In this document: piece by piece, positions 43,527 through 61,797 of the stretch
Numbering within the stretch: the first letter of the stretch is position 1
Layout: every line of letters begins with the position of its first letter
IMG/VR virus record: IMGVR_UViG_3300028422_001054
Length of the DNA stretch: 64,000 nucleotides
DNA from: an uncultured virus (IMG/VR IMGVR_UViG_3300028422_001054)
Taxonomy: Duplodnaviria > Heunggongvirae > Uroviricota > Caudoviricetes
Reading direction: 5' to 3' (one strand)
Program-made: the position numbers and the translations under genes
Notes under the pieces: model-generated
Told to the model about the DNA's origin: nothing
What the model saw: only the letters and a program-made list of their open reading frames with translations
Databases searched by the model: none

Positions 43527-44819
43527 ATGATTAGAGCTTTAGAAATTGTTACAATTCTACAGAATAACGGGTTTTATGCGTTATTTGTAGGAGGTTGTGT
43601 TAGGGATTCCCTTTTAGGATTGGAACCAAAAGATTACGATATCGTAACATCAGCTAGTCCAGAGCAAGTTGAAAGTTTATTCATTAATACTATTTCTGTA
43701 GGCAAGGCTTTCGGAGTAATTGTAGTAGATTGTCATTATGAAGTAGCTACTTTTAGATTAGATAATTATACGAAAACGAATGACCTTACAGTTAAACTTT
43801 TAAATAACAAAGATTATTCTTTAGAATATTTGGTTCAGTTAGATTCTTCTAAAAGAGATTTAACCTGCAATGCTATTTATTTTGATCCTGTCTCCGCAGA
43901 ATATTATAACCCTCAAGGAGGTATTGAAGACTTGTCAAATAGAAAACTACGATTTGTGGGAGATCTTGAAGAAAGGTGTATTGAAGACCCTATAAGGATT
44001 TTAAGGTTTTTTAGATTTGCTATTCAGTATAATTTATACCAATCTTCTGAAGAACTAAAGTTAGTTTCTGGATTAGGTCATCTGTTATTAAACGTTTCTA
44101 AGGAACGTATCTTTAAAGAGCTAACAAAAATATTGTATAGTATTAATCCTTCATCACGAGGTATTAGTTTAGAGTTACCTCATATTTTAAATATTATTTT
44201 ACCAGAGTTATCTGTAATGAAGAGTACTTCTCAAAATCCTAAGCATCATCCAGAAGGAAATGTATGGAACCATACAGTTTTAGCTTTAGAGTTTCTAAAC
44301 GTAAGAACTCCTGAAACTCTTTGGGCAGCTTTACTTCACGATGTTGGAAAGATTTATACAACAAGAGGTTATGGTGATAACATAACTTCTTATGACCACG
44401 AAACGGCAGGGTCTGTCGAAGCTGAACGGATCTTAAAAATGTTTAAATGCTCTAATAAGCTAATTAAGGAAGTTTCGTATTTAGTACAAAATCATATGAG
44501 AATTAAGGCTTGTAGAGAAATGAAAGTTGCAAAGGTTGCTAGATTAGTACTTAATGAATATTTTAATAATCTTAAAGAAGTTTCTTTAGCTGATTCTTTA
44601 GCAGGCAAAGGTGATATAACGTGGTGGTCTTGGCTAACCTCTTTTGAGGAGAGAACTCCCTATAAAAATACAGTAACTCCTTTAGTTACTGGGCATGATT
44701 TAATACTTGCTGGAAAACAACCAAATGAAAGTTTTAAAGGTTTACTAAAAAAAGCATTCGATATTCAGTTAGAATATCCTACTAAATCAAAAGAAGTTAT
44801 CTTGAAGGAGTTATTATGA
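43527..44819 (+). CDS. cca: CCA-adding tRNA nucleotidyltransferase with HD domain
   Basis: VGGCVRD, DYDIVT, EVATFR, RDLT.NA, EDP.RILR..RF, HPEG.VW.H, LLHDVGK. Confidence 0.9.
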   Translation: MIRALEIVTILQNNGFYALFVGGCVRDSLLGLEPKDYDIVTSASPEQVESLFINTISVGKAFGVIVVDCHYEVATFRLDNYTKTNDLTVKLLNNKDYSLEYLVQLDSSKRDLTCNAIYFDPVSAEYYNPQGGIEDLSNRKLRFVGDLEERCIEDPIRILRFFRFAIQYNLYQSSEELKLVSGLGHLLLNVSKERIFKELTKILYSINPSSRGISLELPHILNIILPELSVMKSTSQNPKHHPEGNVWNHTVLALEFLNVRTPETLWAALLHDVGKIYTTRGYGDNITSYDHETAGSVEAERILKMFKCSNKLIKEVSYLVQNHMRIKACREMKVAKVARLVLNEYFNNLKEVSLADSLAGKGDITWWSWLTSFEERTPYKNTVTPLVTGHDLILAGKQPNESFKGLLKKAFDIQLEYPTKSKEVILKELL

Positions 44820-46117
44820 CAGCTACATTAGAAAAATTAAATAAAATTATGGAAGATAATAACGGGGAGTTATATTTAAGAGATACTCCAATTACATCGC
44901 TACCTGAAGGGTTAACTGTTCCAGGTAACTTAGAGTTATGCGGTACTAAAATCACATCGTTACCAGAAGGTTTAAAAGTTGGGGGTAGTTTAGATTTAAG
45001 CTATACTTTAATAGAATCGTTACCAGAAGGGTTAACCGTTGGAGGTAGCTTATATTTAGAAGGTACTAGAATTAAATCATTATCTGAAGGGTTAAAGGTT
45101 GGAGATAACTTAGATTTAAGAAATACTAAAATCACATCTTTACCAAAAGAATTAACTGTTGGGGATAGCTTAGATTTAAGAAATACTGAAATTACAGTAT
45201 TACCAGAAGGATTGTCTGTTGGAGGTAGCTTATGTTTAAGTAATACTCCAATTAAATCGTTACCAGAAGACTTAACGTTTGGAAGAGGCTTATATCTAAA
45301 TCATACTCAGATTGAATCGTTACCAGAGGGGTTAAAAGTAAGTGGATATCTAGATTTAAGACATACTCCAATTACATCGTTACCTAAAGGGTTAAAGGTT
45401 GGAGGATATTTAGATTTAAGTAATACTCTAATTAAATTGTTACCAGAGGGATTAAAGGTTGGAGGTAGCTTAGATTTAAGACATACTCCAATTACAGAAT
45501 TACCAAGAAGGTTAACGGTTGGAAGAGACTTATATTTAAGAGATACTCAAATTAAATCGTTACCAAAAGGGTTAACTGTGGGAGATAATTTATATTTATA
45601 CGGTACTAAGATAACATCGTTACCAAAAAGATTAAAGGTTGGTGATCGTGTCTATAGTTATTTACCTGAAAATAAAGTAAACTACACAAAACTTCAACAG
45701 GGTGATTATGTTAAAGATGAATATCTATATGCCGATGACATATTAACTCATATTAAAGCTAAAAAGTCTTTTGATAAATACACATATTTTATTGGAGAGT
45801 TTAAAGGTCGAAATGTTCTTTACGATGGAACTTATTATGCTCATTGTAAAAATATTAAGCAAGGAATTGAGGATCTTAACTTCAAACATGCTGAAGATAG
45901 AGGATCCGATCAATACAGAAATTTAAAGTTATCAAGTACTTTAACTTTTGAAGAATCTAAAACAATGTACAGGGTTTTAACAGGTGCTTGTAGGCAAGGT
46001 ACTGAAAGCTTTATTAGTAACTTAAAAACAATAAAGGAACACTATACCATTCAGGAATTACTAGATTTGACTGTTGGTCAATATGGACATGAAACTTTTA
46101 AGAAGTTTTTTAGTTAA
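44816..46117 (+). CDS. 20-aa LRR-repeat protein, copy 1 (13 repeats, 433 aa)
   Basis: LxLxxTxIxSLPxGLxVGGx units plus shared ~155-aa C-terminal domain. Confidence 0.9.
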   Translation: MTATLEKLNKIMEDNNGELYLRDTPITSLPEGLTVPGNLELCGTKITSLPEGLKVGGSLDLSYTLIESLPEGLTVGGSLYLEGTRIKSLSEGLKVGDNLDLRNTKITSLPKELTVGDSLDLRNTEITVLPEGLSVGGSLCLSNTPIKSLPEDLTFGRGLYLNHTQIESLPEGLKVSGYLDLRHTPITSLPKGLKVGGYLDLSNTLIKLLPEGLKVGGSLDLRHTPITELPRRLTVGRDLYLRDTQIKSLPKGLTVGDNLYLYGTKITSLPKRLKVGDRVYSYLPENKVNYTKLQQGDYVKDEYLYADDILTHIKAKKSFDKYTYFIGEFKGRNVLYDGTYYAHCKNIKQGIEDLNFKHAEDRGSDQYRNLKLSSTLTFEESKTMYRVLTGACRQGTESFISNLKTIKEHYTIQELLDLTVGQYGHETFKKFFS

Positions 46118-46142
46118 AAAGTGTAAGATAAGAGGAGATACT

Positions 46143-47324
46143 ATGGAATATACTTTAGAAAAATTAAATAAAATTATGGAAGATAATGATGGGGACTTAG
46201 ATTTAAGCGTTACTCCAATTACATCATTACCTGAAGGGTTAACTATTGGAGGTAGCTTATATTTAAGTAAGACTCCAATTACATCATTACCTAAAGGGTT
46301 AAAGGTTGGAGGTTGGTTAGATTTAAGATATACTCCGATTAAATCATTGCCAAGAGATTTAACATTTGGAGGTAGCTTATGTTTAAGTTTTACTCAAATT
46401 AAATCGCTGCCAAGAGGTTTAAAGGTTTTGGGTAACTTAGATTTAAGCTTTACTCAAATTACCTCGTTACCAGAAGAATTGTCTGTTGGCGGTAGTTTAT
46501 ATTTAAATAATACTCAAATTACATCGTTACCGAAAGGGTTAACTTTTGGAGGTTGGTTAGATTTAAGAAATACTAAAATTACATCGTTACCAGAAGGCTT
46601 GAAAGTGGGAAGAGACTTATATTTAAGTGATACTCCAATTTCATCATTACCAGGAGATTTAAAGGTCGGGGGATATTTAGATTTAAGCAATACTCCAATT
46701 AAATCGTTACCAGAGGGGTTAACGGTTGAAAGAGACTTATATTTAGGAAATACTCCAATTAAATCGTTGCCTGAAGGGTTAACTGTTGGAGGTAGCTTAT
46801 ATTTAAAAGGTACTAAAATTAAATCTTTACCAAAAGGATTAAAAGTTGGAGGTACCATATTTAGCGATTTACCTAAAAATAAAGTCAAATACACAAAACT
46901 TCAACAAGGTGATTATGTTGAAAATTCATATCTCTTTGCTGATGGAATTTTAACTCACATTAAAGCTAAAAAGTCTTTTGATAAATACACATATTTTATT
47001 GAAGAGTTTAAAGGTCGAAATGTTCTTTACGATGGTATCTATTATGCTCACTGTAAAAATATTAAGCAAGGAATTGAGGATCTTACCTTTAAACATGCTA
47101 CAGATAGAGGGTCCGATCAATACAAAAATCTAAAATTATCCAGTACTTTATCTTTTGAAGAATCTAAAACAATGTATAGGGTTTTGACAGGTGCTTGTAA
47201 ACAAGGAACTGAAAGTTTTGTTAATAATTTGAAAACAATAAAAGAACAGTATACCATTCAGGAATTACTAGATTTAACTGTTGGTCAATATGGTCATGAA
47301 ATTTTTAAAAAGTTTTTTAATTAA
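46143..47324 (+). CDS. 20-aa LRR-repeat protein, copy 2 (11 repeats, 393 aa)
   Basis: ATG 46143 after GAGGAG; same architecture as copy 1. Confidence 0.9.
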   Translation: MEYTLEKLNKIMEDNDGDLDLSVTPITSLPEGLTIGGSLYLSKTPITSLPKGLKVGGWLDLRYTPIKSLPRDLTFGGSLCLSFTQIKSLPRGLKVLGNLDLSFTQITSLPEELSVGGSLYLNNTQITSLPKGLTFGGWLDLRNTKITSLPEGLKVGRDLYLSDTPISSLPGDLKVGGYLDLSNTPIKSLPEGLTVERDLYLGNTPIKSLPEGLTVGGSLYLKGTKIKSLPKGLKVGGTIFSDLPKNKVKYTKLQQGDYVENSYLFADGILTHIKAKKSFDKYTYFIEEFKGRNVLYDGIYYAHCKNIKQGIEDLTFKHATDRGSDQYKNLKLSSTLSFEESKTMYRVLTGACKQGTESFVNNLKTIKEQYTIQELLDLTVGQYGHEIFKKFFN

Positions 47325-47349
47325 AAAGCGTAAGATAAGAGGAGATACT

Positions 47350-48351
47350 ATGGAATATACTTTAGAAGAATTAAATAAAATGATGAAAGATAAGGATGGA
47401 AACTTAGATTTATACAATACTCAAATTAAATCGTTACCAGGAGATTTAAAGGTTGGAGGTAGCTTAGATTTAAGCAATACTCAAATTAAATCGTTACCAG
47501 GAGATTTAAAGGTTGGGGGTAACTTAGACTTAGAAGGTACTCAAATTACATCATTACCAGAAGGGTTAACTGTTGGAGGTTGGTTAGATTTAAGACATAC
47601 TCAAATTACATCGTTACCAGGGGATTTAAAGGTTAGAGGTAACTTATATTTAAGCAATACTCCAATTAAATCGTTACCAAGAGATTTAAAAGTTGGTGGT
47701 AGCTTGGATTTAAGTAATACTCCAATTACATCATTACCTGAAGGGTTAAAGATTGGAGGTATCTTATATTTAAGCAATACTCCAATTAAATCGTTACCAA
47801 AAAGGTTAACGGTTGGAAGTTGGTTATATTTCAGAGATACTAAAATTAAATCGTTGCCAAGAGATTTAAAAGTTGGTGGAAACGTATCTAGTGATTTACC
47901 TAAAAATAAAGTAAAATATATACAAATTCAACAAGGTGAGTATAGTGAAGCTGACTATCTGTATGCAGATGGAATCTTAACTCATATTAAAGCTAAAAAA
48001 TATTTTGATAAATATACATATTTTATTGGAGAATTTAAAGATAAAAACGTACTTTATGATGGAACTTATTATGCTCATTGTGAAAACATTAAGCAAGGAA
48101 TCGAGGATCTTAACTTTAAACATGCTAAAGATAGAGGTTCCGATCAATACAGAAATTTAAAGTTATCAAGTACTTTATCTTTTGAAGAATCAAAAACAAT
48201 GTACAGGGTTTTAACCGGAGCATGTAGGCAAGGTACTGAAAGTTTTATTAATAACTTGAAAATAATAAAGGAACAGTATACAATACAGGAATTAATAGAT
48301 TTAACTGTTAATCAATATGGTCATGAAGTTTTTAAGAAGTTTTTTAGATAA
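47350..48351 (+). CDS. 20-aa LRR-repeat protein, copy 3 (8 repeats, 333 aa)
   Basis: ATG 47350 after GAGGAG; same architecture. Confidence 0.9.
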   Translation: MEYTLEELNKMMKDKDGNLDLYNTQIKSLPGDLKVGGSLDLSNTQIKSLPGDLKVGGNLDLEGTQITSLPEGLTVGGWLDLRHTQITSLPGDLKVRGNLYLSNTPIKSLPRDLKVGGSLDLSNTPITSLPEGLKIGGILYLSNTPIKSLPKRLTVGSWLYFRDTKIKSLPRDLKVGGNVSSDLPKNKVKYIQIQQGEYSEADYLYADGILTHIKAKKYFDKYTYFIGEFKDKNVLYDGTYYAHCENIKQGIEDLNFKHAKDRGSDQYRNLKLSSTLSFEESKTMYRVLTGACRQGTESFINNLKIIKEQYTIQELIDLTVNQYGHEVFKKFFR

Positions 48352-48708
48352 ATTATTACTATTTTTTAAGGTGTGAAACTTTGTAGTATGTAGTATGCCT
48401 CAGTTTATGTAATTATTTGAGGTATACAGGATATAGCATATAACCGTGAAGAACTTCATTTATATTTTTCAAGGCAAAGAACTCCAGACATAAAGGAGAT
48501 ACAAGTTATTTATCTCTATAACTTATTGAAAGGCCTTTGGCTTCTTACAGAAGAGAGATGGGCTGTACTTATTAAAAATCAACGCTATCTACATATCTTG
48601 ACTAAAGTTTATTATGATATAATCCTTGCACATTTATGACTCCCTATGATATACTACCTAAAGTCAGTATGGTTCTTATCTAGAATTGTACTACTTTGGA
48701 GGATTATT

Positions 48709-49458
48709 ATGATAAAATTGCCGGGGTTATACGAAGAGACTTTTCTTTATTGTATTAGTAATCGAGGGGTTATTATAGAGGAAGGTTCTTTTACAACTAA
48801 AGAGACGAAAGTTAGTCTACCCTGGAGGATACGTGCAAAGCAACCCCCTAATGTTAGTTGTACTATCTACAGGGAATCAACTAAAGAAGAAGAATCCACT
48901 TTTTTACCATACAATTATAAACTTCATGCTCCGAAGTTCAATATTCCCAGAGGGAATTATCGCTTGGATATTTCATGGGATTATGTAGAGGATAACTTAT
49001 TAAGTTTTACGAAACGAGTAGGGCAGACTATAGATGAAGTACTGAATCCCGAGTTTCAACGAGGACACGTTTGGACAGAGCCTCAACAAATAGCTTATAT
49101 TGAGTATATCTTTAAAGGTGGAACCTCTGGAAAAGATGTATATTTTAATTGCTCAGGATGGAATGACGGGTTGGCTGCACCGGTATATTGTGTAGATGGT
49201 TTACAAAGGATAACTGCTGTTCGACGGTTCATGAATAATGAAATTCCTGCCTTTGGTGTTTATTTAAAAGACTCTTCCGGAATTGATAGCTTAGATCAGG
49301 CTTTCTCATGGCATGTTTTAGACTTTAAAGAAATGTCCGAAGTTTTACAATGGTATGTAGATATGAACTCAAAAGGAACTTCGCATACTCAAGAAGAATT
49401 AGACAAGGTTCTCAATCTTAAAAAGAAAATGGAGCAAATCGATGAAAGGACGACATAA
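48709..49458 (+). CDS. DUF262 (GmrS/ParB-like) domain protein
   Basis: NPEFQRGHVWT, VDGLQRIT, MNSKG; ATG 48709 after GGAGG. Confidence 0.85.
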   Translation: MIKLPGLYEETFLYCISNRGVIIEEGSFTTKETKVSLPWRIRAKQPPNVSCTIYRESTKEEESTFLPYNYKLHAPKFNIPRGNYRLDISWDYVEDNLLSFTKRVGQTIDEVLNPEFQRGHVWTEPQQIAYIEYIFKGGTSGKDVYFNCSGWNDGLAAPVYCVDGLQRITAVRRFMNNEIPAFGVYLKDSSGIDSLDQAFSWHVLDFKEMSEVLQWYVDMNSKGTSHTQEELDKVLNLKKKMEQIDERTT

Positions 49459-49670
49459 TTTTTTAAAAAGACTCGATGAAGTATACGCTAAAGATTTTAC
49501 ATTTAGTATTAAAGAGTTTATAGATTATAATAACACTAAAGTTACTTGTACATGTTCTAAAGGGCATATTACTTTGAAACGTTCTAAGGACCTTTTATAT
49601 ATCTAATCTACGAAATCATCTTAGAGGTGTGACCAAACAATGCAGTGGCTGGAAGCTTGAAAAAATATAA
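49442..49670 (+). pseudogene. Remnant of a homing-endonuclease-like gene
   Basis: MKGRHNFLKRL..VY...NTKVTCTCSKGH (stop 49606) abutting out-of-frame SNLRNHLRGVTKQCSGWKL (NUMOD-like tail). Confidence 0.5.
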
Positions 49671-49688
49671 TAAAACAAAGGAGATATT

Positions 49689-50180: not shown

Positions 50181-50363
50181 ATGGTTGAAAAAGATTTGTT
50201 ACAAGAAGAACTAAAGAAAAAGGAAGACCTTTATAGAAGCTTGTTATTGAAAGCATGTTTTAATAAAAAGTCTTACTATAACTCCGATACTTCTTCTACA
50301 GAAATATCTCTTATTAGAGAGGAAATAGAAATATTAAAAGATCAGCTTAAGGAGTATTCATGA
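50181..50363 (+). CDS. Small coiled-coil protein
   Basis: GGAGG RBS; abuts both neighbours. Confidence 0.55.
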   Translation: MVEKDLLQEELKKKEDLYRSLLLKACFNKKSYYNSDTSSTEISLIREEIEILKDQLKEYS

Positions 50364-51950: not shown

Positions 51951-51960
51951 TAGTCTTTAG

Positions 51961-51989
51961 TTGACATACATCCTACTAAATGTTACAAT
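51961..51989 (+). promoter_or_regulatory. Sigma70-type promoter
   Basis: TTGACA-N17-TACAAT with TG at the extended -10 position. Confidence 0.8.
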
Positions 51990-52012: not shown

Positions 52013-52369
52013 ATGACAAAAGTTCAATCAGCGGAAGAATCTGAAAAATATCTATTAAATGTTACCGGGCTGTCTAGTATACAGCTCGATTATGTCGTTA
52101 TGGAATATCTCTTCCATAAAGGTCGAATCGATCATCAATATATTAACAAAATTATGACTAATTTCGTAGCTGGTCTTAATTCTCTAAGGGACGAAGAGTG
52201 TCAGGGAAGAGCTGATGCAGAAACTACGGCAATAGCAGCATTGCACATGATTGATAAAAACAGAATTTGTTTGAAAAAGAATGCTCCATGGGTAAGCGTT
52301 ATTAAAAGATACTTATCAAACTTTAAAAGCGTTAATTTACGAGGAATTAATGAAAAATTTTTAAAATGA
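52013..52369 (+). CDS. Hypothetical protein
   Basis: AGGAGG RBS. Confidence 0.7.
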   Translation: MTKVQSAEESEKYLLNVTGLSSIQLDYVVMEYLFHKGRIDHQYINKIMTNFVAGLNSLRDEECQGRADAETTAIAALHMIDKNRICLKKNAPWVSVIKRYLSNFKSVNLRGINEKFLK

Positions 52370-52418: not shown

Positions 52419-53720
52419 ATGAAGTTTACTTTAGAAGAATTAAATAGAATGATGAAAGATAAGGATGGAAATTTAGATTTAAGACATACTCAAATTACAT
52501 CATTACCAAAAGGGTTAACGGTTGGAGGATATTTAGATTTAAGAAATACTCCAATTAAATCATTACCTGAAGGGTTAACCGTTGGAAGAAACTTAGATTT
52601 AGAAGATACTAAAATTAAATCGTTACCAGAAGGGTTAAAAGTAAGGGGATATTTAGATTTAAGCAATACTCCAATTACATCATTACCAGAGGGGTTAACC
52701 GTTGGAGGTAACTTAGATTTAAGAAATACTAAAATTAAATCGTTACCTGAAGGGTTAACCGTTGGAGATAGCTTAGATTTAAGTAATACTCCAATTACAA
52801 CATTACCAGAAAGGTTAACGATTGGAGGATATCTAACTTTAGAAAATACTCAAATTAAATCGTTACCGAAAGGCTTAAAAGTTGGAGGAGGTTTATATTT
52901 AAGCAATACTCCAATTACATCGTTACCAGAAGGGTTAACAGTTAAAGGATATCTAGATTTAAGCTATACTTCAATTATATCATTACCTAATGGGTTAAAG
53001 GTTGAAGGTTGGTTAGATTTAAGAAATACTAAAATTAAATCGTTACCAGAAGGGTTAACGGTTGGAGGTAGTTTATATCTAAGAAATACTCAAATTAAAT
53101 CATTGCCTAAAGGATTAACTGTTGGAAGAGACTTATTTTTAAGATATACTCAAATTACATCATTACCAGAAGGATTAACCGTTGGAAGAGACTTATATTT
53201 AAAAGGTACTAAAATTAAATCGTTGCCAAGAGATTTAAAAGTTGGTGGAAAAATCTATAGTGATTTACCAGAAAGTGAATTAAACTATACAAAACTTCAA
53301 CAAGGTGATTATGTTGAAGCTGCATACCTATATGCCGATGAAATATTCACTCACATTAAATCTAAAAAATCTTTTGATAAATACACATATTATATTGGTA
53401 AAATTAAAGATAAAAATGTACTTTATGATGGTACATATTATGCACATTGTGAAAACATCAAACAAGGAATTGAGGACATTAACTTCAAACATGCTAAAGA
53501 TAGAGGATCAGAGCAATACAGAAATCTAAAGTTATCAAGTACTTTATCTTTTGAAGAATCTAAAACAATGTTCAGGGTTTTAACCGGTGCTTGTAGGCAA
53601 GGTACTGAAAGTTTTATTGAAAATTTGAAAGAAGTACAAGATCAGTATACTATTCAGGAATTACTAGATTTGTCTGTTAATCAGTATGGTCATGAAACTT
53701 TTAAGAAGTTTTTTAGGTAA
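52419..53720 (+). CDS. 20-aa LRR-repeat protein, copy 4 (13 repeats, 433 aa)
   Basis: Same architecture as copies 1-3; GAGGAG RBS. Confidence 0.9.
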   Translation: MKFTLEELNRMMKDKDGNLDLRHTQITSLPKGLTVGGYLDLRNTPIKSLPEGLTVGRNLDLEDTKIKSLPEGLKVRGYLDLSNTPITSLPEGLTVGGNLDLRNTKIKSLPEGLTVGDSLDLSNTPITTLPERLTIGGYLTLENTQIKSLPKGLKVGGGLYLSNTPITSLPEGLTVKGYLDLSYTSIISLPNGLKVEGWLDLRNTKIKSLPEGLTVGGSLYLRNTQIKSLPKGLTVGRDLFLRYTQITSLPEGLTVGRDLYLKGTKIKSLPRDLKVGGKIYSDLPESELNYTKLQQGDYVEAAYLYADEIFTHIKSKKSFDKYTYYIGKIKDKNVLYDGTYYAHCENIKQGIEDINFKHAKDRGSEQYRNLKLSSTLSFEESKTMFRVLTGACRQGTESFIENLKEVQDQYTIQELLDLSVNQYGHETFKKFFR

Positions 53721-53873
53721 AAAGAGTGTTTTAGCATTCCTATTATGTGTACTGTACTAGTAATGATTATGTAAACATTTTCGGTAAAATTAGGCATTAA
53801 AGGTCTTACTAGTAGTATTTTTTTAAGAATGCTTATACACTACGTTAGCAGGTTTATGATGAAAGGAGTTTAA

Positions 53874-54371: not shown

Positions 54372-54385
54372 GCAAAGGAGCTTTT

Positions 54386-55401: not shown

Positions 55402-55853
55402 GTTATATTTTAGCAATGATTATCGGGCATTTTGTAGGAGATTATCTTTTCCAAACAAGCAAAATGGCGGCAAACAAAAATAAGAGAAAGCTATTAGGAT
55501 GGGGCTGGGCTATTTTTCATGGTTTGGTTTACAGTTTTATGGTGGTGTTAGTTATGGTATACTTTTATCCTGAGCTTTTAGCAGATTTTAGGATTATTTT
55601 ATTTTGGGGATTTACCTGGATAACTCATGCACTAATAGATCATTATTCTTTTGCCAAGCATTGGAGTATATTTATGGCCTCTGATACTTTACCAAACTTT
55701 AACGATGACCTTATTTCTAAGTATGAGTATCCTAGAACTACAGCAGAAATTTTTAAGATTTCTTTTACCTCTGTAGTATATATTGTGGTTGATAATACTT
55801 GGCATATTGTTTTACAATCAGTTTTTCTAATTGAAACTTTTGGGAGATTTTAA
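55398..55853 (+). CDS. DUF3307-like membrane protein
   Basis: GHFVGDYLFQ...MA..K, H...Y, TH..ID, DN..H. Confidence 0.8.
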   Translation: MSYILAMIIGHFVGDYLFQTSKMAANKNKRKLLGWGWAIFHGLVYSFMVVLVMVYFYPELLADFRIILFWGFTWITHALIDHYSFAKHWSIFMASDTLPNFNDDLISKYEYPRTTAEIFKISFTSVVYIVVDNTWHIVLQSVFLIETFGRF

Positions 55854-55895
55854 AAAGACTATTGACTTAGGCATTAATACTTGCTAATGTTAGTT

Positions 55896-56285
55896 ATGAC
55901 AAAAGCCGTTTTAAAAGATCGTATAACTAAAGCACTGAAAATAAAATCAGTAAAGTACTCAGAGGAAGTTTTTTATGATTGTTTAGCGTATTTAAACTCG
56001 GAGATGATAAGCCCTCAACCTTTAGGCTTTTTTGATTTAAAAACGCCTTTAGGATTTGGGGCCCATTCTGAAAAAACTCTTGAAGATTTGTTGGAAGAAA
56101 ATCCTTATTATGTAAATTGGTTAATAAAAAATCACGTAATTGACATCTCTAATCAAGACTACAATATTATTAAAAAGAGGTTAAAGACTGTTAAGAACAG
56201 GAATATACGGCATTATACTAAAAGAGAGCCTATAGAGAAAAGAGAAAACATAAGTCTCGAGATTCAGGGCTATATTACTTTCTAG
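55896..56285 (+). CDS. Protein with ExoX C-terminal/DUF3820-like motif
   Basis: FG.H..KTL.DL....P.YV.WL; start inferred just after TTGACT-N17-TAATGT. Confidence 0.55.
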   Translation: MTKAVLKDRITKALKIKSVKYSEEVFYDCLAYLNSEMISPQPLGFFDLKTPLGFGAHSEKTLEDLLEENPYYVNWLIKNHVIDISNQDYNIIKKRLKTVKNRNIRHYTKREPIEKRENISLEIQGYITF

Positions 56286-56582
56286 AAAAATCCTTAGAAT
56301 AAGCGTATACTGTTATTGTTGCGAAAGCTGATGAATGGAGGAAGATACGAAGAGATTTTATATAAAGATAGGTATATTGCTAACTTGCCTATCTATTATT
56401 ATGCTGAGGAAATATATTTGGGTCCAACCGAATTTACGAGTGGTATTAGTGTATTTAAAACTTACCGGTATAATCTGGGGGATTACAATAAGTATTTTCT
56501 TTGTCGTGGCTTTTACTATAGGTTTTCTTAAGAGGAAATCGCTTAAAACCACTTACCTAGAGATTAAAGAGGTAATCTATAC

Positions 56583-56798
56583 ATGCTTGATTTAAAGGAA
56601 TGCTGCCAGCCAGTAACATCAAAAATTTTTAAAGTAAATGGCCGGTATTATGTTGTTGAAAAAGAAGTAAATGGGTGCCTTGGTTGTTGTTTTATTAATA
56701 ATCAAGAGCCGTGCCTTGTTTACGATACTACGAGTAAACTCTTTGCTCAGATTGGAAAATGTGCTACTACTAAGTTTATATTTAAGGAGATAGAATGA
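56583..56798 (+). CDS. Cys-rich small protein
   Basis: C.GC.F.....C.......C...IFKE; GAGGT RBS. Confidence 0.6.
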   Translation: MLDLKECCQPVTSKIFKVNGRYYVVEKEVNGCLGCCFINNQEPCLVYDTTSKLFAQIGKCATTKFIFKEIE

Positions 56799-57103
56799 AA
56801 TTATTTACAAAACTACATGCGTCTAAAACGCCTAAGCAACCACCTCTTTTCATAGAGTCTTCTGACATCTTGAAGATTATATCAGAGTCTCTTGAAATAC
56901 CTATTGATACTATCCGAAGTTTTTCACGTTTTAAGGAAGACTTAGGAGCAGATGATTTGGATTTATATGAGATTATTTACAAAATAGAGTCTTCTCACAA
57001 TTTAATATTTAGAAGGTATTGTAATTTGACAGCTATTAGTAAGTTTGTTTTAGTTCAGGATATTTACGATGACCTGTATCAGCTAGGGGTAAAAGTTATA
57101 TGA
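56795..57103 (+). CDS. Acyl-carrier-protein-like protein lacking the conserved Ser
   Basis: II.E.L.I....I...S.F.EDLGADDLD..E....IE. Confidence 0.8.
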   Translation: MKLFTKLHASKTPKQPPLFIESSDILKIISESLEIPIDTIRSFSRFKEDLGADDLDLYEIIYKIESSHNLIFRRYCNLTAISKFVLVQDIYDDLYQLGVKVI

Positions 57104-57291
57104 AAAAAATATTAAGTGTATTATTGCCCATCACCTCTCTCGTGTTTATTGCTCTTTTCATGATAGGGTCTTACGATATCCTGGTGCAAATAATGGATTT
57201 ACAGCTTCAGGCTATTAAAGATAATTGGCATTATATCGTTGGGTTTTTTATTACGTTAGTAATAAATCTTAGTTTTTTCTTAAAGAGGTAG
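57100..57291 (+). CDS. Small membrane protein
   Basis: Two hydrophobic helices; ATGA coupling. Confidence 0.6.
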   Translation: MKKILSVLLPITSLVFIALFMIGSYDILVQIMDLQLQAIKDNWHYIVGFFITLVINLSFFLKR

Positions 57292-57293
57292 TC

Positions 57294-57650
57294 ATGATTT
57301 CGCTAAATACTTTAAAAATAAACGAAGGATCTTCGTGTAAGAATTGTAATGGATCTATTTGGGTGTCAGAAGGGTTTAATCGTTTTGTATGCCCACGATG
57401 TAATGGTTCTGGTGTAGAGCCAACGGTATCTCCTGAACAGTATAAAGAAGCCTCTAATACTCTATTAGCTTTTCTTATTTTAACTAATAAAGACATCTTT
57501 ATATATATTCCTCTGGAAGATTTCCATCTCTATGTTCCAAGTCTATTATTTTATAAAGATAAGTATTACTATAATGGTATCAGAGTTAAATCATCTAAGA
57601 TAGCTAAGAAACCATGTCTAGTAAAGAACGGGTTCCGACAATATCTGTAA
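57294..57650 (+). CDS. Zinc-finger protein (CxxCxG repeats)
   Basis: CKNCNGS...CPRCNGSG. Confidence 0.65.
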   Translation: MISLNTLKINEGSSCKNCNGSIWVSEGFNRFVCPRCNGSGVEPTVSPEQYKEASNTLLAFLILTNKDIFIYIPLEDFHLYVPSLLFYKDKYYYNGIRVKSSKIAKKPCLVKNGFRQYL

Positions 57651-57691
57651 GATTTATAACTCTCATCATCTTTTTAAATTAAGGAATTAAC

Positions 57692-58798
57692 ATGCACAGT
57701 ATAAATGTCTTAAGTCTCTTTGATGGAATAAGCGGAGGAAGGCTGGCTTTTCAAAAAGCTAATATTCCTGTAAATAAATATTATAGCAGTGAGGTTGAAA
57801 AAGCTCCTATTTCGATAGCTGATAAAAATTGGCCCATGGACACGAAATACCGTCTAGGAGATGTTAGAAATATTGACATTTCTAAATTAGATAAGATTGA
57901 TATTCTTATTGGTGGAAGTCCTTGTCAATCTTTCTCGCTGGCTGGTAAACGAAATGGGATGTCTACAAAAGAAAAAATAGAAGTATTGACTTTAGAACAT
58001 TACCTTACACTAAAGTCACAAAACTTTGTTTTTGAAGGACAGTCTTACCTTTTTTGGGAATATATGAGGATTCTCAAAGAACTTCAAGCCATAAATCCTA
58101 ATGTATTGTTTTTTTTAGAAAATGTAAATATGACTAAAAAGTGGGAAAGTGTTTTAACTTCGGCAATTGGCGTAAATCCAATCAGCATTAATTCGTCTTT
58201 AGTATCTGCTCAGAATAGAAAACGTCTTTATTGGACAAATATTCCTGGAGTTACTCAACCCGAAGATAAAGGAATTCTTCTGAAGGATATTGTTCTCCCA
58301 AATACTATTCCTGTTGCATTACACAATCTCTATGGAGGTTTTAAAGAAACATCCATAAGAGTATTTGAGGGTAAATCTCCTACTATAAGAACTGCTTCAG
58401 GTGGTGGTCATATACCTTCATTTGTTACAGAAGCGTTATTACATTCTGAAAAAGCAATAGCGTATATGAATAGAACAGTTAAAGGTGGTAGAAATCCCTG
58501 GGACTTTAAGCATCATTCTGATATTAGAAATCCAAAATCAGCAGCAGTTGTAGCTAATTTCTTTAAAGGAGTTCCTTACAATGTTTTTAAAGATTGGCAT
58601 GTTATTAGAAAGTTTCATCCTATAGAGTGCGAACGGTTGCAAACTTTACCGGATAATTACACCGAAGGGGTTTCTCCAACACAACGATACTCGGCAATTG
58701 GTAATGGATGGACTATCGATGTTATTGCTCATATCTTTAAAGGTATTTTCTCTTCAAGAGAAACTATACCTACTGACAATTTTGTTTTTGGTTACTAA
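57692..58798 (+). CDS. DNA (cytosine-5)-methyltransferase
   Basis: LSLFDG, GGSPCQ, ENV, QNRKR, ERLQ, IGNGW. Confidence 0.93.
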   Translation: MHSINVLSLFDGISGGRLAFQKANIPVNKYYSSEVEKAPISIADKNWPMDTKYRLGDVRNIDISKLDKIDILIGGSPCQSFSLAGKRNGMSTKEKIEVLTLEHYLTLKSQNFVFEGQSYLFWEYMRILKELQAINPNVLFFLENVNMTKKWESVLTSAIGVNPISINSSLVSAQNRKRLYWTNIPGVTQPEDKGILLKDIVLPNTIPVALHNLYGGFKETSIRVFEGKSPTIRTASGGGHIPSFVTEALLHSEKAIAYMNRTVKGGRNPWDFKHHSDIRNPKSAAVVANFFKGVPYNVFKDWHVIRKFHPIECERLQTLPDNYTEGVSPTQRYSAIGNGWTIDVIAHIFKGIFSSRETIPTDNFVFGY

Positions 58799-58866
58799 GC
58801 TATATTTATTGTTTTATACAATAGACAAAACATTTTAAATACTATAAGCTCTTTTTATAAGGAGCT

Positions 58867-59115
58867 TTGATTTTGAAAGAAGTATATATAGTGTCATGTA
58901 TTATTACGTTACTAGGAATTTTATTGGTTATTTCTGGAGCAGGTTTACCTCGAAAAGAGAACTCTCTCAACGAAGATAGGGTCTCTTTTTATTTTTATAC
59001 CTTTATGGGATTATCTCATAGATTAAAACTGTACTATTATTCCCTTGTCCCAGAGTTAAGTAAGATAGTTCAAGAGTATGAATCATCTCCAGCGATTACA
59101 AAGGATATTTTATGA
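58867..59115 (+). CDS. Membrane-anchored hypothetical protein
   Basis: AAGGAG RBS; N-terminal TM helix. Confidence 0.55.
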   Translation: MILKEVYIVSCIITLLGILLVISGAGLPRKENSLNEDRVSFYFYTFMGLSHRLKLYYYSLVPELSKIVQEYESSPAITKDIL

Positions 59116-59453
59116 TAGGACTTATATATCTATGTGTTGTAGCTCTTTTAGCTTGGGTCTTAACATACTTTACGAGAGCTAAGACCTTAAGCTCACCTAA
59201 ACAAATAGAGGCTTTTATCATGAATGAAAAAACATGGTCTAATATTAAAGCTTTTGACCCAAAATTCGCAAATGACGGATCTTATAGAGGATGTAAGGTG
59301 GTTATATCAGATCTTATATTGGATAATGAGGTTTTTGTTAAGTATCGAGCAGCTTCTCAGTATATTGAGTTATCTATTGGCCTCTATATTCCAGAACCTT
59401 TTAAAGAATCTCCTGCGATCAAGACCATTAATTTAGACCAGGCTTTCGATTGA
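59112..59453 (+). CDS. Membrane-anchored hypothetical protein
   Basis: N-terminal TM helix; ATGA coupling. Confidence 0.6.
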   Translation: MIGLIYLCVVALLAWVLTYFTRAKTLSSPKQIEAFIMNEKTWSNIKAFDPKFANDGSYRGCKVVISDLILDNEVFVKYRAASQYIELSIGLYIPEPFKESPAIKTINLDQAFD

Positions 59454-59884
59454 ATTTAACAATAAAAACTTTACAGGATGAAAAAGACCTTAAAAATCTT
59501 TTAGAGTTTATTAGTAAGCAGGAACAATATTATCCAAACTTTAAAGATTGGGTTTTTGGTAAACTCCAGAATAGGTTAGAGAATACATCCTATAAAAGTT
59601 TGATAGCTGTTGAGAATAAGGCTATTCTTGGTTGTTTGGTTTATTCAGATGTTGAAGATATAACCTATATAAAGAATTTCAGAATAGATACCTTTTATCA
59701 GAATAGGTCTTTAGGAACTTTTCTCCTTAATCAGATAGTAGGGAAAAACTCCATTATTACAGATATTACAACTACCAATTTTAAAGCTGTTGAGTTTTTT
59801 ATTAAACAAGGTTTTAAAATAGCTTCTATGGAAGAGCTTTATTTGAAAGGGCAGCAGGAATACATTATAAAGAAAAGTCTTTAA
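59450..59884 (+). CDS. GNAT acetyltransferase
   Basis: YP.F..W, I...YQNRSLGT.LL, N..A..FF.K.GF. Confidence 0.8.
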   Translation: MNLTIKTLQDEKDLKNLLEFISKQEQYYPNFKDWVFGKLQNRLENTSYKSLIAVENKAILGCLVYSDVEDITYIKNFRIDTFYQNRSLGTFLLNQIVGKNSIITDITTTNFKAVEFFIKQGFKIASMEELYLKGQQEYIIKKSL

Positions 59885-60108
59885 ACGTCATGTTAAGTGC
59901 TGAGAGCATATTTTTCTAGGAAGTATGCTTTTTAAAGTCTTTGTTGAAAAGGCCTCAGTAAGAATAACACCTCGGGATAAACCCTTCTTTAGTAAATAAG
60001 AAAATTCTAGCCTTCCTATAGAAAGGGTTATTCCTAAAACGCAATATTTTCTAGTAAATGATTGACATAATTATTATATACGTCTACTATGTTGAAAGGA
60101 GTTTATTA

Positions 60109-60327
60109 GTGGATTTAAAATTAACTGATTTGAAAAATGATTTAGGCTTATTAGAGACAACTAAATCTTGTTTAGAGCAAGAAATAGCTCTTTAAAAAGA
60201 AGCTATTTCTATGCATCTATGCCCTTACAAGGTTGGTGACTTTATCAATAGGTTTAGATTAAAAAATGATCGAGAGTTTTATAAACAGCCTGTTAGGGCC
60301 TGGATGCGGATACGTATGATTCAATAG
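60109..60327 (+). pseudogene. Interrupted hypothetical gene
   Basis: TTGACA-N17-TACTAT promoter and AAGGAG RBS; coiled-coil ORF broken by TAA at 60193-60195, frame continues KEAISMHLCPYKVGD. Confidence 0.55.
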
Positions 60328-60370
60328 AATTTGATTTAAATAACACAGTTATATCAGGAGGAAATGATAA

Positions 60371-60679
60371 TTGAAAGATTTTAACATAGGTGATGTTGCC
60401 TATAGGATGATACGTCCTACAGAAACAGTTACAGGAGAATGTGCTTTACCTGTAACCATAGAAAGTGTTGTTAAAGAAGAATCAAATCAGGGAACTGTTA
60501 TCATAAAATATTATGTAACCTACGGAACTTTTGACGAAGGAGATTATTTAGAGCCTAAATATCTTTTTGCGTCAAAACAAGAAGCTCTTGATGGTATGAA
60601 AAAGATATTGTGTGAAGATTTGATTAAACTTAATGATAAAATCTTGAAGATAAATAATGCTTTGGAGGAAATAAGATGA
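60371..60679 (+). CDS. Hypothetical protein
   Basis: GGAGG RBS; FNIGD.AY...LF.SK.EA. Confidence 0.65.
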   Translation: MKDFNIGDVAYRMIRPTETVTGECALPVTIESVVKEESNQGTVIIKYYVTYGTFDEGDYLEPKYLFASKQEALDGMKKILCEDLIKLNDKILKINNALEEIR

Positions 60680-61797
60680 AATGTTCTTTAGAAGAATTAA
60701 ATAAACTGATGGATGGAAATTATGGAGACTTAGATTTAAGTCATACTCCAATTACCTCGGTACCTAAAGGGTTGAAAGTTGGAGGTAGTTTAGATTTAAG
60801 CAATACTCAAATTACCTCTTTACCAGGAGATTTAAAGGTTGGAGGTAGCTTAGATTTAAGAAATACTCCAATTAAATCGTTACCAGAAGGCTTGAAAGTG
60901 GGAAGAGACTTATATTTAAGGGATACTCCAATTTCATCATTACCAGGAGATTTAAAGGTGGGAGGTTGGTTAGATTTAAGAAATACTAAAATTAAATCGT
61001 TACCAGAAAGGTTAACTGTTGGAGGACATTTAAATTTAGAAAATACTCCAATTAAATCATTACCTGAAGGATTAACTGTTGGCGGTTGGTTAGATTTAAG
61101 AAATACTCCAATTTCATCATTACCAGGAGATTTAAAGGTCGGCGGATATTTAGATTTAAGCCGTAATCCAATTACATCGTTACCTGAAGGGTTAACCGTT
61201 GGAGGTAGCTTATGTTTAGGAAGTACTTCAATTACATCGTTACCTGAAGGGTTAACGGTTGGAGGCAACTTATATTTAGAAAATACTAAAATTAAATCGT
61301 TACCAAAAGATTTAAAAGTTGGAGGTACCATATTTAGCGATTTACCTGAAAGCGAACTAAACTACACAAAACTTCAACAAGGTGATTATGTTGAAAACTC
61401 ATACCTCTTTGCTGATAGAAGCTTAACTCACATTAAATTTAAAAAGTCTTTTGATAAGTACACATATTTTATTGGAGAGTTTGAAGGTCAAAACGTACTT
61501 TACGATGGTACATATTATGCACATTGTAAAAACATTAAACAAGGAATCGAGGATCTTAACTTTAAACATGCTAAAGATAGAGGATCTGATCACTATAAAA
61601 ATCTAAAATTATCAAGTATCTTAACTTTTGAGGAATCTAAAACAATGTACAGGGTTTTAACCGGAGCATGTAGGCAAGAAACTGAAAGTTTTGTTAATAA
61701 CTTAAAAACAATAAAAGAGCAGTATACCGTTCAGGAATTAGTAGATTTAACTGTTAATCAATATGGGCATGAAACTTTTAAGAAGTTTTTTAATTGA
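60676..61797 (+). CDS. 20-aa LRR-repeat protein, copy 5 (10 repeats, 373 aa)
   Basis: Same architecture as copies 1-4; GGAGG RBS. Confidence 0.9.
   Translation: MKCSLEELNKLMDGNYGDLDLSHTPITSVPKGLKVGGSLDLSNTQITSLPGDLKVGGSLDLRNTPIKSLPEGLKVGRDLYLRDTPISSLPGDLKVGGWLDLRNTKIKSLPERLTVGGHLNLENTPIKSLPEGLTVGGWLDLRNTPISSLPGDLKVGGYLDLSRNPITSLPEGLTVGGSLCLGSTSITSLPEGLTVGGNLYLENTKIKSLPKDLKVGGTIFSDLPESELNYTKLQQGDYVENSYLFADRSLTHIKFKKSFDKYTYFIGEFEGQNVLYDGTYYAHCKNIKQGIEDLNFKHAKDRGSDHYKNLKLSSILTFEESKTMYRVLTGACRQETESFVNNLKTIKEQYTVQELVDLTVNQYGHETFKKFFN

What the first reader, a model, noticed from the sequence alone, without database searches (positions are those of the whole stretch)
44816..61797. Five-member repertoire of variable 20-aa LRR proteins with a constant C-terminal domain
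Seen: five paralogs (44816, 46143, 47350, 52419, 60676) of 433, 393, 333, 433 and 373 aa. They differ only by exact multiples of 20 aa (13, 11, 8, 13, 10 repeats; 55 in total) between an 18-aa N-cap and a ~155-aa C-domain. The framework L-x-L-x-x-T-x-I-x-S-L-P-x-(G/D)-L-(T/K)-V-G-G-x is nearly invariant. Position 20 (S/N/W/Y/D/G/I/H), position 2 (D/Y/C/E/T/N/F) and positions 4-5 (R/S/E/Y/K/N/C/G; N/H/D/G/Y/F/V/K/R/S) vary widely. Known: in LRR solenoids the xLxLxx strand residues form the concave binding face, as in lamprey VLRs. Inference: a phage-encoded combinatorial binder library, cytoplasmic (no signal peptide, outside the virion module), perhaps aimed at host defence proteins or nucleic acid, with a shared effector domain.
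Basis: partly seen in the sequence, partly recalled or inferred. Interest (0 to 1): 0.88.

Follow-up and report, generated by a model that had tools for sequence, protein, structure and literature searches.

The report
Phage family of variable LRR proteins
A large uncultured phage carries at least five copies of a protein that joins a leucine-rich-repeat coil with a variable inner face to a conserved, undescribed end domain, probably a set of tools that each seize a different host protein.

Summary
Five same-strand genes encode an 18-aa cap, 13/11/8/13/10 units of 20 aa (55 units) and a 155-aa C-domain.

Variation sits at unit positions 20, 5, 4, 7 and 2, and the framework is near-invariant. 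Pooled pN/pS is 1.22 at positions 20/2/4/5, 0.21 in the framework and 0.19-0.30 in the C-domain.

The window is a T4-like phage fragment. Its 129.7-kb contig appears to hold two more paralogs.

This is not a one-off:
- The C-domain defines a large, unnamed, phage-borne family: 810 representatives at E<=1e-3.
- It has no Pfam or NCBIfam model and no solved-fold match.
- It is always joined to an LRR or another repeat array.
- It lies in early replication/recombination regions.
- It is multi-copy in another large phage contig.
- Its His64 and Cys113 are lost together.

Best reading (0.4): an inherited panel of cytoplasmic LRR target-recognition modules that deliver a shared thiol-type effector domain to host proteins. 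Target, chemistry and expression are untested. No paper on the family turned up in five searches. This scan has noted other LRR repertoires in large phages before.

The parts
44816..46117 (+). Paralog A, 433 aa: cap 44816-44869, 13 LRR units 44870-45649, C-domain 45650-46114. Its start overlaps the stop of the upstream CCA-adding enzyme gene.
46143..47324 (+). Paralog B, 393 aa: cap 46143-46196, 11 LRR units 46197-46856, C-domain 46857-47321. It lies 25 nt after A.
47350..48351 (+). Paralog C, 333 aa: cap 47350-47403, 8 LRR units 47404-47883, C-domain 47884-48348. It lies 25 nt after B.
52419..53720 (+). Paralog D, 433 aa: cap 52419-52472, 13 LRR units 52473-53252, C-domain 53253-53717. Residues 280-433 were the query and the model of the C-domain. 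In that 154-aa numbering, D28, H64 and C113 are residues 307, 343 and 392.
60676..61797 (+). Paralog E, 373 aa: cap 60676-60729, 10 LRR units 60730-61329, C-domain 61330-61794. This is the paralog modelled at full length.

Best explanation
The five genes (probably seven or more in the genome) are an inherited repertoire of cytoplasmic two-part proteins. The N-terminal part is a 20-residue-period LRR solenoid. Its inner-face residues (unit positions 20, 2, 4, flanked by 5 and 7) differ from unit to unit and from paralog to paralog, so it acts as the target-recognition part. The C-terminal 155-residue domain is the constant working part. It belongs to a widespread, phage-borne, undescribed family with a strongly conserved polar set (D28, H64, K78, R83, Y88, Y106, R107, T110, C113, E135, T140).

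I infer that the proteins are made early in infection. Each LRR would seize a different host protein, or a different variant of one host protein, most plausibly a defence or other host-range factor. The C-domain would then act on the target, most likely as a Cys-His thiol enzyme.

Shown: the architecture, the pattern of variability, family size, genomic context, multi-copy state in large phages, and the coupled H64/C113 conservation. Inferred: the cytoplasmic site of action, early expression, protein targets, catalysis, and any link to host defence.
For: Architecture and variability:
- Exact modular build in all five genes.
- High-confidence LRR solenoid plus compact alpha/beta C-domain in the full-length model (pLDDT 92.4, pTM 0.83). 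The LRR part is most like Vibrio FlrP, then SHOC2 and IpaH/SspH/SlrP/YopM LRRs.
- Variability is concentrated at positions 20, 5, 4, 7 and 2 in the window.
- The same holds within proteins across 108 homologs with 754 units: mean within-protein entropy is 1.81, 1.48, 1.36, 1.34 and 1.30 at positions 20, 4, 5, 7 and 2, and 0.75 or less at all others. Position 20 is rich in S, W, D, G, N and Y.
- pN/pS is 1.22 at positions 20/2/4/5, against 0.21 in the framework and 0.19-0.30 in the C-domain.
- In L103, nine near-identical units differ in amino acid only at positions 20, 4 and 2.

The C-domain as a functional module:
- 810 representatives at E<=1e-3, and 361 at 1e-10 or better.
- Nearly always C-terminal, behind 20-aa LRRs, BspA-type LRR_5 or other repeat arrays.
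- In 243 near-full-length domains, eleven polar residues are 91-99% conserved.
- Of the 14 sequences that lack C113, 12 also lack H64 (Fisher p 3.7e-13). Of the 10 that lack D28, 8 also lack H64.
- C113 sits directly before helix 114-122 and H64 sits in strand 62-65 of the model.

Context:
- No hydrophobic N-terminus.
- In the window the genes lie among a CCA-adding enzyme, a kinase, a phosphatase, a Dcm methylase, GNAT and DHFR genes, 18 kb or more from the baseplate and tail-fibre genes.
- In other phage contigs the gene lies beside CI-type repressors or an integrase, or just upstream of SSB, Erf/RecE, resolvase and methylase genes.
- A 222-kb phage contig holds at least five copies at E<=1e-15, while 67-99-kb contigs hold one to two.
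Against: - No target, activity or expression has been shown.
- The C-domain model has no solved-fold match (best Foldseek E 0.26; best VIA Z 4.5, none at 5 or above) and no Pfam, NCBIfam or PADLOC hit. 'Enzyme' therefore rests only on conservation and on the co-loss of H64 and C113. Coordinates of the model were not available to me, so I could not check that D28, H64 and C113 lie together.
- The co-loss statistic ignores shared ancestry among the sequences.
- pN/pS was pooled over paralogous units by a simple Nei-Gojobori count. It separates relaxed from purifying selection better than it proves positive selection; 1.22 is only a little above 1.
- LRR charge is not conserved: pI 7.9-9.6 in the window against a median of 4.3 in 111 homologs. 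Any common target class is therefore not obvious.
- A position next to repressors in prophages also fits lysogen-expressed genes.
Confidence: 0.4

Rival explanations
1. Non-catalytic binder or adaptor. The LRR binds a host or phage protein. The C-domain is only a docking or capping module that ties the bound target to a conserved machine (for example a host protease, or the phage replication/recombination apparatus), or it simply blocks the target.
For: The same architecture and context evidence applies. The C-domain has no enzyme-family or fold match. It is mostly basic (median pI about 9 in 111 homologs), as a docking surface for an acidic partner or nucleic acid could be. The gene sits directly upstream of recombination genes in several phages.
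Against: Eleven polar residues at 91-99% conservation, with coupled loss of H64 and C113, is more than a docking surface usually shows. No conserved neighbouring partner gene was seen in the loci annotated.
Confidence: 0.2
2. Defence or superinfection-exclusion sensors carried by phages and prophages. The variable LRR would sense proteins of competing phages, and the C-domain would be a toxic or abortive effector.
For: Variable LRRs are typical of immune receptors (established knowledge). In prophage-like loci the gene lies next to repressor and integrase genes. A GmrSD_N/NsnA-like defence-type gene lies between the paralogs in the window.
Against: There is no PADLOC match and no NTPase or other switch domain. 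The family has seven or more and five or more copies in large T4-like or jumbo-type contigs, on the same strand as replication and metabolism genes. In temperate-type loci it runs in the direction of the early lytic genes (SSB, Erf) rather than with the repressor.
Confidence: 0.15
3. Virion-associated proteins. Either they are host-surface binding modules attached to the particle through the constant C-domain, as proposed for the DUF7941 paralogs of phage Goslar. Or they are proteins packaged in the head and injected.
For: Caps of C, D and E contain L-E-E, which fits the (L/I)xE site of the T4 prohead protease; that motif is recalled, not from a call.
Against: The genes are not in or next to the structural block, either here or in the other phages looked at. 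The cap is a predicted helix packed on the first repeat (residues 5-13, block pLDDT 88-89). The cap is conserved in homologs from 30-60-kb contigs of non-T4 type. Paralogs A and B have L-E-K instead. No PHROG structural family matches.
Confidence: 0.12
4. Ordinary drifting repeat proteins. The variable positions are merely the unconstrained surface of an LRR scaffold, and the paralogs are redundant.
For: Pooled pN/pS at the inner-face positions is only 1.22. Outward-facing strand residues are the least constrained in any LRR (established knowledge).
Against: The same five positions vary within proteins across 108 homologs, while other exposed positions (9, 10, 13, 14, 16) stay at 0.75 bits or less. 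Position 20 is enriched in W, Y, D, S, N and G. All five window copies and the two further copies P0011 and P0014 keep intact frames and the conserved C-domain residues D28, H64 and C113.
Confidence: 0.08

Closest known systems
Vibrio FlrP (PDB 8Z5U/8Z5W/8Z60), the LRR protein bound to the rod of the polar flagellar motor (bioRxiv 10.64898/2025.12.04.692373; passages read)
   Same: It has the same 20-residue LRR unit. It is the best sequence match among solved structures (113 bits, E 1.3e-31) and the best fold match of the full-length model (E 2.5e-8). It shows that this repeat forms a beta-solenoid that binds other proteins.
   Different: FlrP has a Sec signal peptide and works in the periplasm. 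It is a single 199-residue protein without the C-domain and is a cellular gene. The window proteins have no signal peptide, carry the 155-aa C-domain, and are phage genes in several copies.
IpaH / SspH / SlrP effectors (LRR + NEL E3 ligase) and XopAC (LRR + Fic)
   Same: An N-terminal short-period LRR picks the substrate, and a constant C-terminal enzymatic domain acts on it. The LRR parts match in sequence and fold.
   Different: The C-domain here is half the size. It has no NEL or Fic match and no fold match. The proteins are phage-encoded and presumably act inside the bacterial host, not in eukaryotic cells.
Poxvirus ankyrin-repeat / PRANC (F-box-like) host-range families (recalled; no call)
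   Same: Large viruses carry many paralogs that join a variable repeat-type binding domain to a small constant C-terminal domain. Copy number is higher in larger genomes; compare.
   Different: The repeat type and C-terminal domain are different, and the host kingdom is different. Recruitment of a degradation machine is not shown here.
Lamprey variable lymphocyte receptors
   Same: They are LRR scaffolds with variation concentrated on the concave beta-strand residues. VLRs and VLR-derived repebodies appear among the sequence matches.
   Different: VLR diversity is made somatically by cassette copying, and VLRs have cysteine-knot caps. Here diversity is inherited in separate genes, the caps are different, and nothing suggests somatic assembly.
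Goslar DUF7941 paralogs (PMC13742148; passages read)
   Same: A phage multigene family in which one constant module is joined to different binding domains, LRRs among them.
   Different: There the constant module is N-terminal, is restricted to chimalliviruses and forms tail-associated filaments. Here it is C-terminal, spread over many phage types, and the genes lie in non-structural regions.

Membership tests
Leucine-rich repeat superfamily | Repeated LxxLxLxx(N/T/C)xL-type units recognised by LRR profiles | tested here: met
   Pfam LRR_4 at E 1.3e-10 to 2.5e-13 and LRR_1 above cut-off in all five proteins.
Leucine-rich repeat superfamily | Curved solenoid fold with one inner beta-strand per unit | tested here: met
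   The AF2 model has pLDDT 92.4, with strands at unit positions 1-2 of every unit. 58 PDB matches at E<=1e-3 are reported; all 38 rows printed are LRR proteins.
FlrP-type 20-residue LRR proteins | 20-residue period and sequence likeness to FlrP | tested here: met
   Exact 20-aa units; 113 bits over 160 residues against 8z5u.
FlrP-type 20-residue LRR proteins | Sec signal peptide and periplasmic location | tested here: not met
   No hydrophobic run of 6 or more residues in the first 40 residues of any paralog. FlrP has a signal peptide at M1-A19.
IpaH/SspH NEL E3 ligases | C-terminal NEL domain with a catalytic Cys | tested here: not met
   No NEL family among the Pfam hits at E<=1. NCBIfam SspH2 matches only the LRR, at 15.5 bits against a cut-off of 1243. 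The C-domain is 155 aa and mixed alpha/beta.
Lamprey VLR-like receptors | Variation concentrated on concave-strand residues | tested here: met
Lamprey VLR-like receptors | Somatic assembly from flanking cassettes; cysteine-rich LRRNT/LRRCT caps | tested here: not met
   All five genes are complete and separately startable. The cap is an 18-aa helix that holds no cysteine in four of five paralogs and one in E. Units are 75% identical on average with no identical donor copies. Somatic change itself could not be tested in reads.
Diversity-generating retroelement targets | Nearby reverse transcriptase and a template repeat | tested here: not met
   No reverse transcriptase among the 20 large ORFs scanned with PHROGs or the 36 ORFs of 35-64 kb scanned with Pfam. 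Small ORFs of 1-35 kb were not scanned.
Permuted NlpC/P60 - LRAT-type thiol enzymes (a lead recalled from memory) | His on a beta-strand and Cys at the N-terminus of a helix, conserved together | tested here: inconclusive
   H64 lies in strand 62-65 and C113 lies just before helix 114-122. They are 91% and 94% conserved and are lost together. Spatial proximity could not be checked.
Permuted NlpC/P60 - LRAT-type thiol enzymes (a lead recalled from memory) | Profile or fold match to the family | tested here: inconclusive
   No such Pfam hit at E<=1 on the full proteins or at 0.01 on the C-domain. No such chain among the rows listed by Foldseek or VIA; an unlisted family is not excluded.
Known anti-phage defence proteins (PADLOC) | Match to a PADLOC model | tested here: not met
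   No hit at E<=0.01 for paralog D, its C-domain or P0138.

The most novel reading that the evidence does not exclude
Phages have their own counterpart of the poxvirus ankyrin/PRANC or Shigella IpaH strategy. This would be a germline panel of LRR 'aiming' modules that bring one previously unknown Cys-His effector domain onto host immune or host-range proteins. Panel size would grow with genome size (one copy in 30-60-kb temperate phages, five to seven or more in 130-220-kb phages) and would help set host range. The C-domain would then be a new enzyme fold, and the LRR arrays a natural library of binders against bacterial defence proteins.
Probability: 0.25. Interest if true: 0.85.

Novelty: new variant of a known kind. 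Interest (0 to 1): 0.66.

Why it matters
If the reading holds, this is a very widespread phage protein family, with hundreds of 50%-identity clusters. It occurs mostly in phages and prophages of gut Clostridia, but also in a Tetrasphaera phage, in genome contigs labelled Bacteroidota, Alphaproteobacteria and Elusimicrobia, and in DNA held by a hydrothermal-vent metagenome run. It works on the 'variable binder plus constant effector' principle, so far described mainly for eukaryote-directed effectors and eukaryotic viruses.

It would give three things: a new domain to characterise, with a high-confidence model, no known fold and a coupled His-Cys pair; a handle on what large phages do with their expanded accessory gene sets; and a natural collection of small, stable, cysteine-poor LRR binders whose targets may point to unknown host defence factors.

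On the practical side, these genes break short-read assemblies. The gene is cut by the contig end in 47 of 80 viral loci and 25 of 70 genome loci. That probably explains why the family has gone unnoticed.

Tried and rejected
- Close relatives of this phage, to compare arrays: megablast of 22 kb against 50,697 phage records found nothing. A protein-based scan of IMG/VR found one locus at 37% identity. The best non-self proteins are 59% identical or less. The 'identical arrays across isolates' test therefore could not be run.
- Reads: two runs hold the DNA, and they are probably one data set filed twice; no RNA holder is listed. Only contigs could be laid. They break inside the LRR genes and show paralog cross-matches, so population variation is unreadable.
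- Promoter and terminator scan: fewer promoter-like sites than in shuffles (73 against 85.3), so uninformative.
- C-domain homodimer: complex prediction gave 'no answer' (score 0.02 against a mark of 0.42). That is no evidence either way.
- Fold of the C-domain: the best Foldseek PDB rows are tyrosine phosphatases at E 0.26-1 and TM about 0.2, which I reject as noise. The C(X)5R signature is absent on reading the sequence, and C65 is not among the residues at 70% or above. VIA-wide gave a best Z of 4.5 (EF-hand-like helices 85-148) and profilin-like rows at Z 3.3-3.7, too weak to use. BFVD returned only uncharacterised phage proteins of the same family. The ESM Atlas returned unnamed viral clusters.
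- DNA mimicry by an acidic LRR: the homologs are acidic (median pI 4.3) but the window's LRRs are neutral to basic, so this is not a family property.
- Fusion partners that might name the function: 19 longer or odd members scanned with Pfam showed only repeats and DUF7448. HTH_3 appeared in one member at E 0.0042, below the curated cut-off.
- T4-type head-targeting tag: see the virion rival; judged unlikely.
- Genome-wide search in the window's own assembly: none is held.
- Literature: five searches found no paper on this family: LRR / bacteriophage / phage-encoded; PDB codes; LRR / phage / anti-defense / paralogs; LRR / virome / hypervariable; LRR / prophage / Erf. The Edno5 paper (PMC6372524, passages read) calls an LRR-only phage protein an 'LRR ligase' by likeness to IpaH; that protein matches only the LRR part of paralog D.

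Full report
**What is there**

The window is one strand-biased stretch of a large, low-GC (about 32%) tailed phage. PHROG matches name an NrdD-type reductase, an SbcC-like nuclease, a clamp loader, a primase, a baseplate wedge, a 1721-aa tail-fibre protein, an NAD ligase, a CCA-adding enzyme and DNA methylases. No whole genome is held for it, and no phage record matches it at the DNA level.

Each divides without remainder into an 18-aa cap, 13, 11, 8, 13 or 10 units of exactly 20 aa, and a 155-aa tail. Each ATG is preceded by a Shine-Dalgarno-like sequence.

A, B and C are tandem with 25-nt spacers. D and E lie 4 and 12 kb further on, on the same strand. The neighbouring genes are a GmrSD_N-like protein, a guanylate-kinase-like protein, a metallophosphatase, a Dcm methylase, a GNAT and many small unknowns. 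An HMM of the C-domain finds exactly these five genes in the six-frame translation of the window.

The database lists two further proteins of the same build, P0011 (279 aa) and P0014 (253 aa, four regular units). They are recorded on a contig of 129,693 bp, the same length given for the window's own proteins. Their best local alignments are 73% and 77% identical to paralog D. I infer that the genome has at least seven copies.

**The pattern of variation**

Over the 55 units, L1, I8 and L15 never change, and L3, T6, L11 and P12 change once each. Positions 20, 5, 4, 7, 13, 2 and 9 carry 2.87, 2.42, 2.21, 2.07, 1.82, 1.65 and 1.55 bits.

A pooled Nei-Gojobori count over all unit pairs gives pN/pS of 1.22 for positions 20/2/4/5. 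It gives 0.82 for positions 7/9/13/14/16 and 0.21 for the eleven framework positions. The ten C-domain pairs give 0.19-0.30 at 83-89% DNA identity. The count is crude: the units are paralogous, per-codon pS is unstable, and there is no tree. I therefore read it as strong relaxation, or modest positive selection, on the inner face against strong constraint elsewhere.

The same picture holds well beyond this phage. In 108 homologs (754 units), mean within-protein entropy is 1.81, 1.48, 1.36, 1.34 and 1.30 bits at positions 20, 4, 5, 7 and 2, and at most 0.75 bits at every other position. Position 20 is made up of S 26%, W 20%, D 11%, G 10%, N 8% and Y 8%.

In one prophage-like locus (L103), nine units are almost identical in DNA and differ in amino acid only at positions 20 (W/S/G), 4 (S/R) and 2 (D/N).

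The units in the window are old and mixed. Mean DNA identity is 75%, nearest neighbours are 78-95% identical, and none are identical. The only hint of a shared block is B7-B8 with E3-E4.

**Structure**

The full-length model of paralog E is confident (pLDDT 92.4, pTM 0.83). It has a cap helix at residues 5-13 and a short strand at unit positions 1-2 and again at 16-17 of every unit. A compact domain follows, made of a five-strand meander and then helices. By ordinary LRR geometry, the side chains at positions 20, 2 and 4 point out of the inner sheet, and positions 5 and 7 flank it. I could not measure this, because model coordinates are not given to me.

The nearest solved relative in sequence and in fold is Vibrio FlrP, a periplasmic 20-residue-unit LRR protein that clamps the flagellar rod. 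After it come SHOC2, Leptospira LRR proteins and the LRR domains of YopM, SlrP, SspH1 and IpaH.

The C-domain modelled alone is also confident (pLDDT 93.3) but matches nothing solved. The best Foldseek E is 0.26. No chain of 48,161 reaches Z 5 with VIA-align. In BFVD it matches only uncharacterised phage proteins. It has no Pfam, NCBIfam or PADLOC model.

**The family**

A scan of 1.84 billion representatives with the 154-aa C-domain finds 810 proteins at E<=1e-3, 361 at 1e-10 or better and 41 at 1e-30 or better. In nearly all of the 150 listed, the domain is at the C-terminus.

The N-terminal partners are 20-aa LRRs of 1 to 10 or more units and other LRR variants, including BspA-type LRR_5 (P0204). 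They also include several other repeat arrays that Pfam does not name, and occasionally a weak, sub-threshold HTH match. A word-indexed search with the whole of paralog D gave 959 proteins at E<=1e-3.

In IMG/VR, 193 of 198 pattern hits were confirmed as relatives. In the species-representative genome collection, all 70 pattern hits are true members at E<=1e-26.

By record title, most of these are gut or rumen Clostridia assemblies: Oscillospiraceae, Ruminococcus, Acutalibacteraceae, Lachnospiraceae and 'Eubacteriales'. A few are Bacteroidota, Alphaproteobacteria, Melainabacteria-type and Elusimicrobia. Named phages with the C-domain are Tetrasphaera phage TJE1 and 'Dulem virus 31'. The window's own DNA is held by a run labelled hydrothermal vent metagenome.

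The gene is cut at its 5' side by the contig end in 47 of 80 viral loci and 25 of 70 genome loci. The repeats evidently break short-read assemblies, as they also do in the contigs laid on the window.

**Context elsewhere**

The annotated loci show a consistent setting.
- In L038 and L047 the gene lies near a CI-type repressor, and in L047 also near an integrase.
- In L007 it lies just upstream of SSB, a DnaD-type loader, a RecE-like exonuclease, a resolvase and methylases.
- In L013 it lies upstream of an Erf-like protein and a methylase.
- In L071 it lies beside helicase, primase and methylase genes.
- L103 reads, in order, integrase, HTH regulators, small genes, this gene, and then the next ORF. 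I read that ORF as a single-strand annealing protein from its sequence alone; it was not scanned.
- In TJE1 the match lies two genes (about 1.2 kb) upstream of the annotated ERF protein and exonuclease.
- In 'Dulem virus 31' it follows an exonuclease, a replisome organiser and an endonuclease.

None of these is a structural module.

Copy number follows genome size in the few records checked. A 222-kb contig has at least five copies at E<=1e-15. A 70.7-kb contig has two copies, one of which contains a stop. Contigs of 67, 73 and 99 kb have one each.

**The C-domain's conserved centre**

In 243 near-full-length domains the conserved polar residues are D28 96%, H64 91%, K78 96%, R83 91%, Y88 92%, Y106 99%, R107 95%, T110 99%, C113 94%, E135 96% and T140 96% (numbering of the 154-aa query).

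Of the 14 sequences without C113, 12 also lack H64 (Fisher p 3.7e-13). Of the 10 without D28, 8 also lack H64. These p-values ignore relatedness, although most of the rows are 50%-identity representatives.

H64 lies in a strand, and C113 lies at the N-terminal end of a helix. That is the usual setting of the nucleophile in papain-like and related thiol enzymes (established knowledge). All five window paralogs, and P0011 and P0014, keep D28, H64 and C113.

This is the basis for calling the domain a probable Cys-His enzyme. It is an inference, not a result.

**How it most likely works, and the rivals**

The best-supported reading is a two-part tool. A variable LRR face selects a host protein, and a constant C-domain acts on it. 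The protein would be made inside the infected cell from non-structural operons, with several differently aimed copies in large phages. I put this at 0.4.

The alternatives are:
- a non-catalytic adaptor or blocker (0.2);
- a phage-borne defence or exclusion sensor (0.15);
- a virion-attached or head-packaged protein (0.12);
- mere drift of an unconstrained surface (0.08).

The evidence for and against each, and the result that would refute it, are given in the Rival explanations section.

What it works like is IpaH/SspH-type LRR-effector fusions and poxvirus ankyrin/PRANC host-range families. It is a member of neither, because the defining C-terminal domains were tested for and are absent.

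**Novelty**

LRR binding modules, LRR-effector fusions and repeat-protein gene families in large viruses are all known kinds. What is new is this particular family. It has an undescribed C-terminal domain with no fold match, and it is spread over hundreds of sequence clusters of phages. It is always coupled to a repeat array whose inner face varies, and it is expanded in large phage genomes.

Five literature searches found no paper that treats it. Supplements were not consulted.

This scan has noted other LRR repertoires in large T4-like phages, and a length-variable 20-residue LRR early gene with a different head domain (e1-6041663, e1-5991916; e1-3290452). Those notes are unchecked and concern other DNA and other domain partners.

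**Verdict**

I class it as a new variant of a known kind, with interest 0.66.

Noticed in passing
window 46514-46894 (-) and 60807-61331 (-): Long antisense ORFs (126 and 174 aa) run through the LRR arrays of B and E with their own 20-aa periodicity. They are most likely by-products of the repeat, not genes.
   Followed up: no
window 48646-49458 (+): A 270-aa protein between paralogs C and D carries a GmrSD_N (DUF262-type) domain (Pfam E 3.5e-9). It also matches the PADLOC models NsnA and PD-T4-2_A. This is a defence-type nuclease domain in a phage accessory region.
   Followed up: partly
window 43527-44819 (+): A CCA-adding tRNA nucleotidyltransferase with an HD domain is translationally coupled to paralog A through an ATGA overlap. 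No tRNA gene was found in the 64-kb window.
   Followed up: no
window 47700 -> 52501: One contig in each of two runs joins paralog C to paralog D, skipping 4.8 kb, with 31 other letters between the two sides and only 26 letters on the shorter side. It could be a recombinant deletion variant between paralogs, or a graph artefact of shared words. It is too weak to call.
   Followed up: no
L103 (genome contigs record titled Helicobacter pylori strain SHZY19 contig_19): The contig encodes an integrase, HTH regulators, a 374-aa family member and, by my reading of its sequence, a single-strand annealing protein. By eye its sequence looks more GC-rich than I recall for H. pylori. It looks like a prophage of another organism, so it is probably contamination or mislabelling.
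   Followed up: partly
L153 (PP511318.1, 'Dulem virus 31'): The record is filed under Microviridae, yet it is 35.8 kb and encodes an exonuclease, a replisome organiser, YopX and ASCH genes typical of tailed phages. The taxonomy label looks wrong.
   Followed up: no
L152 (Tetrasphaera phage TJE1, locus 4868-5675): The family match runs from locus 5001 to 5666 on the + strand, but the record annotates only a 399-nt orf51 there and an opposite-strand orf50 over the LRR part. The gene seems to be mis-called in the record.
   Followed up: no
window 51961-51989 (+): The best sigma-70-like site in the region (11 of 12, with an extended TG) lies just upstream of ORF 52013-52369 and paralog D. Overall the scan found fewer sites than in shuffles.
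   Followed up: no
G001 (IMG/VR contig of 222,463 bp; L001 lies in it): This contig is a second large phage with a dispersed repertoire of the same C-domain family: at least five copies at E<=1e-15. The copy at 26479-27078 contains two TAA stops, and a weak match at 155389-155616 (E 1e-4) contains one.
   Followed up: partly
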